Source of the DNA: a virus
Taxonomy: Duplodnaviria > Caudoviricetes
DNA length: 30,644 nucleotides
Strand: one strand, 5' to 3'
IMG/VR virus record: IMGVR_UViG_3300032272_001391
Coordinates: 1-30,644 of that record
Shown here: positions 9,983 to 12,881 of the stretch, piece by piece
Position numbering within the stretch: position 1 is the stretch's first letter
Layout: each line of letters starts with the position of its first letter
Program-made: the position numbers and the translations under genes
Notes under the pieces: generated by a model
The model's input: the letters and a program-made list of their open reading frames with translations, nothing else
The model's database searches: none
Told to the model about the DNA's origin: nothing

Positions 9983-10369
9983 TTAATTAGCGATCTCTAT
10001 TGCCGGTATAATGGCAACGGGTTTAAAAATAACTTTGTAATGATAAGGGGATACCGAGTTGCTTTCCAATTGTTCGGCAAAATATGTTACATTATCCGAT
10101 AAGCCTAAAAAATGCTTTTTATAACTTGCATCTCCTGTTTTGACAGTCAATTCAAGCTGGTTGTCAGTGTTGTCATTCTTTATCGAACATAACCCCTCTA
10201 CTGAAAGGATGTATTCCCCTGTTATCCCATTATAAAATACAACTCTACGGCGCACACGGAACATGTCCGCATCCTTTGACAAATTATTTGACACGATGTC
10301 TGCATCGTCACATCCTGCTATTAAAAAACAGCCGATAATAACTAGTAATAATAAAAAAATCTTTTTCAT
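9983..10369 (-). CDS. Conserved phage lipoprotein
   Basis: Lipobox LIAG-C20; 'DADIVSNNLSKDADMF.VRRRVVFYNGIT...YKKHFLGLSDNVTYF.EQ' matches a widespread phage lipoprotein family of unclear function. Confidence 0.8.
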   Translation of the reverse strand: MKKIFLLLLVIIGCFLIAGCDDADIVSNNLSKDADMFRVRRRVVFYNGITGEYILSVEGLCSIKNDNTDNQLELTVKTGDASYKKHFLGLSDNVTYFAEQLESNSVSPYHYKVIFKPVAIIPAIEIAN

Positions 10370-10391: not shown

Positions 10392-10427
10392 AAAAATGAC
10401 AGCCCCAGGAAAAGGGTGGGGGCTGCC
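10392..10427 (-). terminator. Terminator-like hairpin between the tRNA-like RNA and the lipoprotein gene
   Basis: Minus strand GGCAGCCCC/GGGGCTGTC then ATTTTT. Confidence 0.5.
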
Positions 10428-10501: not shown

Positions 10502-10704
10502 TGGGGCCGACAGGATTCGAACCTGTACGGGGTTGCGTTGACTTTTCCGGGGGGATATAACAGCATTCTATTCCCGGTTCCTGTTAATTCAGGCGTTCAA
10601 CTTCGTAATTTCTTACATTTTCTTATTCACGGATCGTTTTTACCGCTCTTTACCTATGGCCGTATATCCTACACCAATAGCGTCTACCATTCCGCCACAG
10701 CCCC
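10502..10704 (-). ncRNA. tRNA-Leu-like RNA with expanded, non-canonical anticodon region
   Basis: Acceptor GGGGCTG/CGGCCCC-A, D arm GCG-GAATGGTAGA-CGC, T arm ACAGG-TTCGAAT-CCTGT; 153 nt between D and T arms; CCA not encoded. Confidence 0.75.
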
Positions 10705-10803
10705 TTAATAGGTAGCAAGCTATATGCCTGCTGCCTTTATATATAATTTGTCTTGACTGGCTTTATGCATAGGCCAGTTTAATTTATCTTTTTATTTTTA
10801 CGG

Positions 10804-10832
10804 AATATCCCGCATTTACCAGGTGGTGTCAA
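10804..10832 (-). promoter_or_regulatory. Putative sigma70 promoter for the tRNA-like RNA
   Basis: TTGACA-17 bp-GATATT on the minus strand. Confidence 0.45.
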
Positions 10833-10937: not shown

Positions 10938-12206
10938 CTATTTTATTTCCCCTTCTACTATGTAGAAATAGCCTGGGGCGTCTATCGGCGGTTGCTCGCT
11001 GGCAACTTGCATTAGGCAAGTGTAACCATTCACTACTAGGTAATCGTGCAATAACTTTCTTCTTGTCGACAGTATCCCCTCCCCGCTGTGGATCATCATC
11101 CACCTAATAGCGTTTTCTGGTGTAGTATTTACGATTAGTTTAGCACCGGTCAGAAGCTTGTCGGACTCACAACACAATTCCCAGTTGTTGCCGTTAAAAG
11201 TTACTGTTTTATCTTCTGCAATACTCAACCCGTCTACTGGCATAGATGCATTAAGCACAGCTTCTTTTTTTTCTTTTTCTTTCTCTGCAATAAGTTGTTT
11301 ATTTTTATCAAAACTTTCGGTAATTACAGCAACTTTATTTTTCCAGGTCAAGAAATCTTTGTACTCTCCGGCTTGCTTGTTTATGTCTTGCAATTTGTTG
11401 AGTTTTTCCTTAACCGGGGCAATGTCTTTTAATGGCTCCGGGTCGTCTGCATTTGCGCGTAAAGATAAAATTTTTGTATTTGACTCTTTTAATTCATCTA
11501 TTTCTTTTTGCAACTTTTCGATCTTGTCGCTATTAGAATTCATTTCAGATATATAGCCTTTTATAATAGATTCCCGTTGTAATTGAAGTTGGTTGTGTTC
11601 AGTAATTTCCTTAATCTTTGCGAGGATGTCTTCAACAGACACGGCCTTCACGTTTGGTACGGGTGTTTTAGTCCCCAACTCTTTCAGTTGCCGCCTGTTG
11701 TAAGATTGATCATCCTTAATGCCTGCTATCTCCCTGTCATATGTTGACAGGTCTACCCCGGCGTATTTAACCAGGATGTCATAAAAGTTTTTTCCTTTCA
11801 TGTTGGCTATTTTTTGGGGGTCGTTCCATTCGTTGGCAATCTGTTCTAAAAAACTTGACGGGGAATTAACGGTAGACCCTTTGTCTCTGCTTACCGATAA
11901 CCGGTGTTTTTGTTCGTCGCCCTTCCCTTTGTACAAGTCCATAGCTGCCTGGAAGGCGGTTGTGTTAACAACAATCTCCCCCCGAAAAGCCTTGCCGTTT
12001 TCATCCAGCCCGTGCCTTATTAGGTCGGCGGGGATAGACCCTTTCCCTTTGCTGATTGCCAACTTGACAGCTTCTAATACAGTCGATTTCCCCGCACCGT
12101 TATCTCCCTGGAATACGTTTACCCCTGGTTCAAGCGAAACGGCAATATCTTTTATTTTACCGATGTTTCTAATCTTAACACTTACTAATCCTAGTCCCTT
12201 TTCCAT
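10938..12206 (-). CDS. SMC/Rad50-like coiled-coil P-loop ATPase (phage AAA family)
   Basis: N-terminal 'VKIRNIGKIKDI', Walker A GDNGAGKST, long coiled coil; AGGAGG RBS. Confidence 0.85.
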   Translation of the reverse strand: MEKGLGLVSVKIRNIGKIKDIAVSLEPGVNVFQGDNGAGKSTVLEAVKLAISKGKGSIPADLIRHGLDENGKAFRGEIVVNTTAFQAAMDLYKGKGDEQKHRLSVSRDKGSTVNSPSSFLEQIANEWNDPQKIANMKGKNFYDILVKYAGVDLSTYDREIAGIKDDQSYNRRQLKELGTKTPVPNVKAVSVEDILAKIKEITEHNQLQLQRESIIKGYISEMNSNSDKIEKLQKEIDELKESNTKILSLRANADDPEPLKDIAPVKEKLNKLQDINKQAGEYKDFLTWKNKVAVITESFDKNKQLIAEKEKEKKEAVLNASMPVDGLSIAEDKTVTFNGNNWELCCESDKLLTGAKLIVNTTPENAIRWMMIHSGEGILSTRRKLLHDYLVVNGYTCLMQVASEQPPIDAPGYFYIVEGEIK

Positions 12207-12220
12207 ACACCCTCCTGTTG

Positions 12221-12400
12221 AAATAAAAGCAGGGGCCCAGCTCTACGCATATGAACCGGTACGATAAACCCCCGCAAGCCCTGCCTCCATAGGACAGGTA
12301 ATAATAATTGGGATTGCACCAACCCACGGTCTTTCACCGCTTGGTTTTATCTTATTTCCACACGCTGACTACATCCTGTCAGGTTACCAACCGCCAAGCT
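12221..12400 (-). ncRNA. Putative structured small RNA / leader upstream of the ATPase
   Basis: Several stems, two T-loop-like hairpins, terminal three-way junction with a U tail; candidate promoter immediately upstream. Confidence 0.45.
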
Positions 12401-12404
12401 TTGT

Positions 12405-12433
12405 ATTATAAAAGCCCCCGGTTAAAGGGGCAA
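12405..12433 (-). promoter_or_regulatory. Promoter overlapping a terminator hairpin
   Basis: TTGCCC-17 bp-TATAAT overlapping GCCCCT/GGGGGC-TTTT. Confidence 0.5.
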
Positions 12434-12473
12434 CCGTGAGGAGCGGCTATCTATTGCGCTCCTCTGTTTTGAT

Positions 12474-12881
12474 TTAGTTTAATTCATTATTATAGTAATT
12501 TTCTTTTGCTTCTTTTTCTTTATCCAGCCATAATGATTTTAAAATAGAATTTGCTTGCTCTTTTGTAGCAGCATAGAAAACATCATATTGAAACCAATTT
12601 TCCCGATAAACCTTATAATCTTCCAGAGTAGGTCTACATTTAGAAACTTCATTATAAATGTAAACAGGGCCATATTCTGTGTATTTTTTACCATACTGGG
12701 TGTAGGTGTCAAAAGAATGTTTAATTGTTACTGAAAATGTATTAGGTGTTTTGGGTGGGGTAGGTTCAGAAATTGACTCTTTGCCAAACTGGTTAATCAT
12801 TTCATCGGGTGTAAATCCGGCATCAATTCCGTCTAATACAGTATCAATATCGTTGTTGTTAATTACCATTAAGTTTTCCAT
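12474..12881 (-). CDS. Hypothetical protein, first gene of the leftward operon
   Basis: GAGGAGG RBS supports the ATG at 12881 rather than 12917. Confidence 0.6.
   Translation of the reverse strand: MENLMVINNNDIDTVLDGIDAGFTPDEMINQFGKESISEPTPPKTPNTFSVTIKHSFDTYTQYGKKYTEYGPVYIYNEVSKCRPTLEDYKVYRENWFQYDVFYAATKEQANSILKSLWLDKEKEAKENYYNNELN

What the first reader, a model, noticed from the sequence alone, without database searches (positions are those of the whole stretch)
10502..10704. tRNA-Leu mimic whose anticodon/variable region is replaced by 153 nt
Seen (minus strand): intact 7-bp acceptor stem, Leu-type D arm GCGGAATGGTAGACGC, perfect T arm, discriminator A, and an A15/U48 pair. Between the arms lie 153 nt containing a long-range helix GGATATACGGC (10669-10659)/GCTGTTATATCC (10564-10553) and no recognisable 7-nt anticodon loop. 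Established: bacterial LeuRS relies largely on A73 and tertiary shape rather than the anticodon. tmRNA needs G3:U70, which is absent here (G3-C70). Inference: an RNase P-processed, possibly leucylated tRNA-shaped carrier. It could be a decoy for anticodon nucleases or tRNA-sensing defence, a scaffold for a cargo RNA, or a tRNA with an unrecognised intron.
Basis: partly seen in the sequence, partly recalled or inferred. Interest (0 to 1): 0.8.

Follow-up and report, generated by a model that had tools for sequence, protein, structure and literature searches.

The report
Phage tRNA frame with swappable cargo
An uncultured phage carries a stretch shaped like a leucine tRNA whose codon-reading part is replaced by 153 unrelated bases; it belongs to a widespread phage family that keeps the tRNA frame and swaps the middle, so the frame likely serves as a stable carrier for an exchangeable RNA cargo predicted to bind a host protein.

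Summary
The element is real: a tRNA-Leu frame (7-pair acceptor stem, Leu-type D arm, T arm, A73, A15/U48) around 153 nt with no anticodon loop. It is not a tmRNA and does not splice to a tRNA. It belongs to a large phage family: about 2,300 stretches estimated in viral contigs, with covarying acceptor stems and 88 unrelated middles among 99 elements. Unannotated members occur in SPP1, phi3Ts and Listeria phages, where near-identical flanks enclose unrelated middles. T5 RNA1, annotated 'tRNA-like stable RNA with unknown functions', has the same frame, so the kind is known, but I found no description of the family in ten literature searches. This scan noted such elements before on other DNA. Best reading (0.5): a natural tRNA scaffold, processed like a tRNA, carrying an exchangeable structured cargo that binds a host protein. 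Expression, charging and partner are untested; this insert has no homologue and folds no better than shuffles.

The parts
10502..10704 (-). 203-nt tRNA-Leu-framed element (type 1: 7-bp acceptor, 5-bp T stem)
   Evidence: sequence; 1 in window vs 0 in 300 shuffles; family parse
10698..10704 (-). acceptor stem, 5' strand (G1-C72, G3-C70, U6.G67)
10680..10695 (-). Leu-type D arm (A14, A15, G18, G19), preceded by U8-G9
   Evidence: same arm in canonical tRNA-Leu loci
10527..10679 (-). 153-nt middle (predicted cargo) replacing anticodon and variable arms; no homologue found
   Evidence: fold z +0.04
10659..10669 (-). 5' arm of possible long-range helix
   Evidence: not in the minimum-energy fold
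10553..10564 (-). 3' arm of possible long-range helix
10580..10646 (-). three predicted local hairpins (10646-10629; 10616-10605 with a GAAA tetraloop; 10593-10580)
   Evidence: pair probabilities 0.7-1.0; prediction only
10527..10536 (-). likely vestige of a tRNA-Leu variable arm (its loop and 3' strand, ending in U48)
   Evidence: same 10 bases plus T-arm start in an ordinary tRNA-Leu, L292
10510..10526 (-). T arm, 5 bp with canonical 7-nt loop
10502..10509 (-). acceptor stem 3' strand and discriminator A73; no encoded CCA
10804..10832 (-). sigma-70-like promoter candidate (10 of 12) about 100 nt upstream
   Evidence: 12 sites found in the region vs 9.3 expected, so weak
10711..10778 (-). 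two leader hairpins
   Evidence: fold; coordinates
10398..10427 (-). G+C-rich trailer hairpin followed by a T-rich run
   Evidence: fold; not called by the terminator scan
10938..12206 (-). upstream neighbour: AAA_23 / SMC-like ATPase (phrog_1499); context only
9983..10369 (-). downstream neighbour: Phage_VG64 / phrog_478 protein; context only, not linked to the family
   Evidence: 1 of 80 VG64 loci holds a family element

Best explanation
The element is a tRNA-Leu frame around a 153-nt non-decoding middle, one member of a large phage family with swapped middles, and it likely works as a natural tRNA scaffold: host enzymes would cut it out and finish it like a tRNA, giving a stable RNA whose exchangeable middle is predicted to bind a host protein. 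Shown: the frame, its covariation across the family, the lack of an anticodon, exchange of middles between phages, and conserved covarying structure in some middles. Inferred: transcription, RNase P and 3' processing with CCA addition, stability, and a protein partner (most plausibly a defence or translation factor, given allele-like swapping). Leucylation is possible but not required.
For: Frame under selection as a fold: with the T loop located by motif alone, the acceptor stem has >=6 of 7 pairs in 59 of 70 canonical-T-loop elements (mean 6.44 vs 4.44 when 5' strands are swapped between elements) and 31 of 32 TGCAAAT-loop elements (6.81 vs 3.70). D loop and T arm covary: 38 of 42 elements with a 6-bp T stem have an extra A in the D loop, against 2 of 59 with a 5-bp stem. 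3'-end signature in type 1: A73 44 of 57, C74 48 of 57, backgrounds 0.39 and 0.15. 22 of 99 have a tRNA or tmRNA gene in the fetched flank, all 22 on the same strand. Middles are modular: Listeria phages LP-101, PSA, FHC15313 and LP-P111 share 96-99% of 130 upstream bases and 96-100% of the T arm, but D arm plus middle are 25-53% alike, close to shuffled values of 25-48%; P70 vs LP-114 likewise. The same middle sits in different frames (L054/L057, L172/L186, L178/L042, L056/L202, L179/L195). Some middles keep covarying helices: 5 of 6 pairs in the L197/L176/L161/L162/L054/L057 group and 9 of 21 pairs in six T5-type RNA1 copies. T5 RNA1 is annotated as a stable RNA. Engineered tRNA scaffolds of acceptor, D and T arms with an insert at the anticodon are processed and stable in E. 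coli (PMC3753655, passages).
Against: This insert has no homologue (best local score 31, null maximum 36.5), so its structure cannot be tested by covariation, and it folds no better than shuffles (z +0.04). Family middles are only weakly structured (median z -0.57; 9 of 99 below -2). 80 of 99 middles are singletons, which relaxed selection would also give. No partner gene: 23 of 73 downstream ORFs hit PHROGs, no family more than 3 times. This copy lacks the subtype's C74. The P70 copy has a damaged T arm, so the frame can decay. The covarying structures were derived from the alignments on which they were counted, and the sequences are related.
Confidence: 0.5

Rival explanations
1. The frame itself is the effector: a non-decoding tRNA decoy that soaks up proteins reading tRNA shape (anticodon nucleases, LeuRS, sensors of uncharged tRNA); the middle is tolerated filler or varies to escape cleavage.
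For: D and T loops, U8, U48 (55 of 59 in type 1) and A73 are kept while the middle is extremely diverse; LeuRS does not need the anticodon arm (PMC2377443, abstract and section 14); most middles are weakly folded.
Against: Some middles keep covarying helices across unrelated frames. P2-OLD needs a motif in the anticodon stem (PMC12445682, abstract), which these RNAs do not conserve. D-loop conservation is partly imposed by my search pattern.
Confidence: 0.25
2. A cis-acting processing signal: RNase P and 3' nucleases cut at the frame to split a polycistronic phage transcript and protect the new ends; the released RNA is a by-product.
For: Elements sit between genes or small RNAs on the same strand (window; SPP1 between genes 9 and 11; B025 6 nt behind the Rfam rliG match; directly behind a tmRNA in L197).
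Against: It does not explain long, structured, swapped middles; phage A118 has the rliG/rli62 region with no such frame visible.
Confidence: 0.12
3. A decayed tRNA-Leu gene or integration-site relic with a random insertion and no function.
For: A 10-base vestige of a Leu variable arm; unstructured singleton insert; the record is classed as a provirus.
Against: Intact frame here; acceptor stems of 26 + 30 different sequences stay paired; in B025 the annotated attP lies 18 kb from the element; lytic phages (T5, SPP1) carry members.
Confidence: 0.07
4. A tRNA with an intron that splices to a working tRNA (ARAGORN intron mode reads tRNA-Phe with a 123-nt intron).
For: ARAGORN -i call; exon ends in U and intron in G at that placement; phage tRNA introns were proposed for Lak phages (10.1101/356790, passages).
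Against: ARAGORN -i also of 500 shuffled inserts in the same frame, and 35 of 40 family members vs 34.0 shuffled, with scattered isotypes and sites. No single deletion gives a canonical anticodon arm in this element; family 3 of 80 vs 2.8 expected. No Rfam intron hit. One bulge-helix-bulge-like motif, as in 9% of shuffles and not at the anticodon.
Confidence: 0.03
5. A minimal tmRNA-like RNA with a short tag frame in the middle.
For: 5' end resembles tmRNA starts (recalled); a short open frame ENVRNYEVERLN-stop lies in the insert; some members neighbour phage tmRNA genes.
Against: G3-C70 here; G3.U70 in 3 of 99 members; full D stem; ARAGORN -m and Rfam negative at this place; the frame does not end in an alanine-rich degron (tag pattern recalled).
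Confidence: 0.02

Closest known systems
Phage T5 RNA1 (AY543070.1 30501-30644, 'tRNA-like stable RNA with unknown functions')
   Same: Leu-type D arm (with G10-C25 flipped to C10-G25), 5-bp T arm, U48, paired acceptor stem, no anticodon loop, enlarged middle, no encoded CCA.
   Different: Middle 80 nt and conserved across T5-like phages (425 records) vs 153 nt singleton; T5 has a U1.U72 mismatch and U73; T5 RNA1 lies in a tRNA cluster, this one stands alone.
Phage T4 RNA C (rnaC, species 1) and T5 RNA2
   Same: Stable phage RNAs of unknown role ending in a T arm and acceptor-like strand (PMC9697503 passages; PMC3014915 passage).
   Different: No Leu-type D arm in either.
Bacterial and phage class II tRNA-Leu (Rfam RF00005)
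   Same: Acceptor, D and T arms, A73, A15/U48, vestige of the variable arm.
   Different: Middle 153 nt vs 31-33 nt in six canonical copies; no anticodon loop; missed by ARAGORN and Rfam.
Engineered tRNA scaffold (PMC3753655)
   Same: Acceptor, D and T arms carrying a foreign RNA in place of the anticodon arm (passages).
   Different: Artificial; keeps a defined anticodon-stem hairpin, which is weak here.
tmRNA (RF00023), YrlA Y RNA (RF02553), B. cereus tRNA-Other, allo-tRNAs
   Same: tRNA-like domains used outside ordinary decoding (PMC3399842 part 1 of 6; PMC5389517 and PMC7609411 passages).
   Different: No G3.U70, no Rfam match; tRNA-Other and allo-tRNAs keep an anticodon; allo-tRNAs are 8/4 or 9/3, this is 7/5 and the sister subtype 7/6.

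Membership tests
tRNA-Leu (RF00005, class II) | 7-bp acceptor, D arm with A14/A15/G18/G19, 5-bp T arm, A73, U48 | tested here: met
tRNA-Leu (RF00005, class II) | 5-bp anticodon stem with 7-nt loop, U33 and a Leu anticodon | tested here: not met
tRNA-Leu (RF00005, class II) | variable-arm stem in the orientation LeuRS reads | tested here: inconclusive
   only loop and 3' strand remain; a 3-bp hairpin in one constrained fold
tRNA-Leu (RF00005, class II) | charged with leucine | not testable with these tools
   needs an aminoacylation assay
T5 RNA1-type tRNA-like phage RNAs | Leu-type D arm, T arm, U48 and paired acceptor stem around an enlarged, anticodon-less middle | tested here: met
T5 RNA1-type tRNA-like phage RNAs | middle with conserved covarying helices | tested here: inconclusive
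   met for T5-type copies; no homologue of this insert, fold z +0.04
T5 RNA1-type tRNA-like phage RNAs | accumulates as a discrete stable RNA | not testable with these tools
   needs RNA from infected cells or heterologous expression
tmRNA (RF00023) | G3.U70 pair, no D stem, tag reading frame, covariance-model match | tested here: not met
group I intron-containing tRNA | catalytic core (Rfam intron families) and canonical anticodon arm after removal | tested here: not met
bulge-helix-bulge intron tRNA | BHB motif at exon-intron borders | tested here: not met
   one BHB-like motif at gene positions 42/142, chance level 9%, not at a border giving a tRNA
Y RNA (YrlA, RF02553) | covariance-model match and a Ro60 gene nearby | tested here: not met
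   no Ro60/TROVE hit among 30-31 window ORFs scanned, not all ORFs

The most novel reading that the evidence does not exclude
Phages run a general natural tRNA-scaffold system: thousands of different structured RNA effectors, swapped between phages like accessory genes, are delivered in a tRNA-Leu frame (two architectures, 7/5 and 7/6) to bind and neutralise host defence or translation proteins; this 153-nt insert is one new effector, and the long-unexplained T5 RNA1 is another.
Probability: 0.3. Interest if true: 0.87.

Novelty: new variant of a known kind. Interest (0 to 1): 0.6.

Why it matters
T5 RNA1 and T4 RNA C/D are still listed as RNAs of unknown function. Placing T5 RNA1 in a family of thousands, with unannotated members in the model phages SPP1 and phi3Ts and allele-like swapping of the middle, makes that old question directly testable by deletion and middle swaps in laboratory strains. 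If the middles are effectors, they are an overlooked pool of phage RNA tools that gene finders miss (default ARAGORN of 99) or mis-call as intron tRNAs. This single copy adds one of the longest middles (5 of 99 are as long) but gives no mechanism by itself.

Tried and rejected
Expression: no RNA holder listed; one DNA run holds the stretch and may be its source; no evidence either way. Homologues of the insert: none by blastn in phages or plasmids, by patterns in viral contigs, or among fetched loci; the only copy, L163, is identical over 4,900 nt and may be the source. Related loci through the AAA ATPase: none confirmed in viral contigs; 14 protein hits without context. Antisense to the phage's own genes: longest exact matches 11, 11, 13 and 12 nt for the window, SPP1, LP-101 and B025, all inside shuffle ranges; host genomes and imperfect pairing were not tested. 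Known RNA families in middles: Rfam on 40 loci put no non-tRNA family on an element; RF00005 scored one, L191. A model of one cargo group scored the window 33 bits, like other frames, so frame only. Partner gene: none; 4 of 77 downstream ORF picks were dropped as spurious and the 86 upstream picks were not scanned. Intron and tmRNA readings rejected. Skipping-rope and other Rfam phage motifs (recalled lead): no hit. The highly transcribed non-coding loci of Listeria phage CKA15 (PMC12282133, passages) could not be tied to the family; its record was not located and its supplement not opened. Host: unresolved; best terminase matches are 33-37% to Marinitoga, Thermoanaerobacterium and Clostridium phages.

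Full report
Observation. The minus strand 10704-10502 reads as a tRNA frame: seven acceptor pairs (one G.U), U8, a Leu-type D arm, a canonical T arm, U48 and A73, with 153 nt between the arms and no encoded CCA. Such a frame occurs once in the window and 0 times in 300 shuffled windows. Default ARAGORN and Rfam find nothing in the window. Its last ten bases equal the loop and 3' strand of the variable arm of an ordinary tRNA-Leu (L292), which suggests descent from a real tRNA-Leu (inference).

Setting. The window is the whole record G000, classed as a provirus and 39% complete, with terminase, portal, tape measure, Erf and antirepressor genes. The element lies on the same strand between an AAA_23 ATPase and a VG64/phrog_478 gene, with a weak promoter candidate 100 nt upstream. 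The host is unresolved. The only other copy, L163, is identical and may be the source.

The family. Locating the T loop by motif alone gave 117 matches (4 had none) and 108 distinct elements. At a fixed register the acceptor stem has at least 6 of 7 pairs in 59 of 70 elements with a canonical T loop (5-bp T stem; mean 6.44 against 4.44 for swapped strands) and in 31 of 32 with a TGCAAAT loop (6-bp T stem; 6.81 against 3.70); 5 of 5 with a hairpin inserted in the T loop also pair fully. In all 101 of 108 pass; two more were dropped as tandem-copy artefacts, leaving 99. There are two architectures: type 1 (7/5, like the window) and type 2 (7/6, with an extra A in the D loop in 38 of 42 against 2 of 59). 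Type 1 conserves A73 (44 of 57) and C74 (48 of 57), also when one element per acceptor sequence is counted (20 and 21 of 26); type 2 does not (23 and 5 of 42). G3.U70 occurs in 3 of 99 and encoded CCA in 1 of 99. Middles have a median of 66 nt against 31-33 in six canonical tRNA-Leu copies; 5 of 99 are 153 nt or longer. A targeted scan found more long ones: 15 of 21 distinct hits have 7 of 7 acceptor pairs around 134-161 nt. None of 99 middles shows an anticodon-like loop in its best fold; the in-register case was excluded by my pattern, and the pattern also fixes the D arm, so its conservation is not evidence.

The middle is a module. The 99 elements fall into 88 sequence clusters, 80 of them singletons. 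In Listeria phages LP-101, PSA, FHC15313 and LP-P111 the 130 upstream bases are 96-99% alike and the T arm with acceptor strand 96-100%, but D arm plus middle are unrelated and the elements are 72-151 nt long; P70 and LP-114 behave alike. Conversely, one middle turns up in different frames and even both subtypes. One such group of six keeps a helix with compensatory changes in 5 of 6 pairs, and six T5-type copies keep 9 of 21; both structures came from the alignments on which they were counted, and the sequences are related. Against a functional cargo in general: family middles are only weakly folded (median z -0.57, 9 of 99 below -2), the P70 copy has a damaged T arm, and the window's insert matches none of 150 other parsed elements beyond chance. 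No exact antisense match beyond chance to the phage's own genome was found in four phages, and no neighbouring gene family recurs. 22 of 99 elements have a tRNA or tmRNA gene in the fetched flank, all on the same strand.

Mechanism. I commit to a natural tRNA scaffold (0.5). The frame keeps what tRNA-processing enzymes read (established knowledge), type 1 keeps a tRNA-like 3' end, and engineered scaffolds of the same design are processed and stable (PMC3753655, passages). The allele-like swapping of middles resembles accessory genes in a conflict with the host, and without antisense matches a protein partner is the simplest target (inference). Transcription, processing, charging and partner are untested. 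LeuRS needs A73, the U8-A14, G18-U55 and G19-C56 core and the variable-arm orientation, not the anticodon arm (PMC2377443, abstract and section 14); this copy has the first two but no clear variable-arm stem, so leucylation is open. Rivals: frame as decoy (0.25), cis processing signal (0.12), relic (0.07), intron (0.03), tmRNA-like (0.02). The intron call by ARAGORN -i is uninformative, since 455 of 500 shuffled inserts get one, and no single deletion restores an anticodon arm.

What is known. T4 RNA C has the T arm but not the D arm and is still called of unknown function (PMC9697503 and PMC3014915, passages). Members in SPP1, phi3Ts, LP-101 and phiJL-1 are unannotated; the 2018 SPP1 re-annotation never uses the word tRNA in its main text (PMC6316719, term search). 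Ten searches (listings) found no description of the family; passages of PMC5389517, PMC7609411, PMC7590224, PMC12282133, PMC7397523, PMC3105390, 10.1101/356790 and 10.64898/2026.08.21.746148, the abstract of PMC12445682 and part 1 of 6 of PMC3399842 describe other things. The library lacks most subscription papers, including the old T5 work, and I opened no supplements; candidate lists of phage structured RNAs (recalled) may hold parts of the family. This scan has noted such elements, and the swappable middle, on other DNA; those notes are not independent support.

Verdict. A real, non-decoding tRNA-Leu-framed element; a new variant of a known but unexplained kind. The family-level picture is the interesting part and is testable in T5 and SPP1. 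Interest 0.6.

Noticed in passing
window 12206-12474 (minus strand): A second non-coding gap upstream of the ATPase, with a promoter candidate and several hairpins, one resembling a T arm with a TGCAAT loop near 12325-12311; perhaps another structured RNA.
   Followed up: no
L016, L023, L024, L029, L076, L114, L118, L130, L135, L155, L156: Family members with a hairpin of variable length inserted inside the T loop, between conserved borders.
   Followed up: partly
L197:1326-1530, L176:1192-1389, L161:2493-2693, L162:704-899, L054, L057: A recurring ~150-nt cargo with a covarying long-range helix and conserved A-rich motifs, possibly pseudoknotted, with no Rfam match.
   Followed up: partly
L167:1015-1060 (SPP1, behind the element): A short hairpin RNA-like stretch with a T-loop motif directly downstream of the SPP1 element.
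   Followed up: no
L168:1457-3023 (phi3Ts, behind the HBsu-like gene): About 1.5 kb without annotated genes, starting with a type 2 element and holding a DUF3800-VIII RNA match.
   Followed up: no
L202:258-690 (Listeria phage B025): The Rfam rliG match ends 6 nt before the element's first base, as if tRNA-like processing could set that RNA's 3' end; A118 lacks the element there.
   Followed up: partly
L165, L178, L184, L190, L197: Several long members lie next to phage tmRNA genes (L165 by eye only).
   Followed up: no
L047, L083, L137, L173, L180, L185: Tandem copies of the frame with different middles in one phage.
   Followed up: no
L038, L058, L075, L113, L139: Middles that contain their own T-loop motif; the 7-mer is enriched (6 seen, 0.6 expected).
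   Followed up: no
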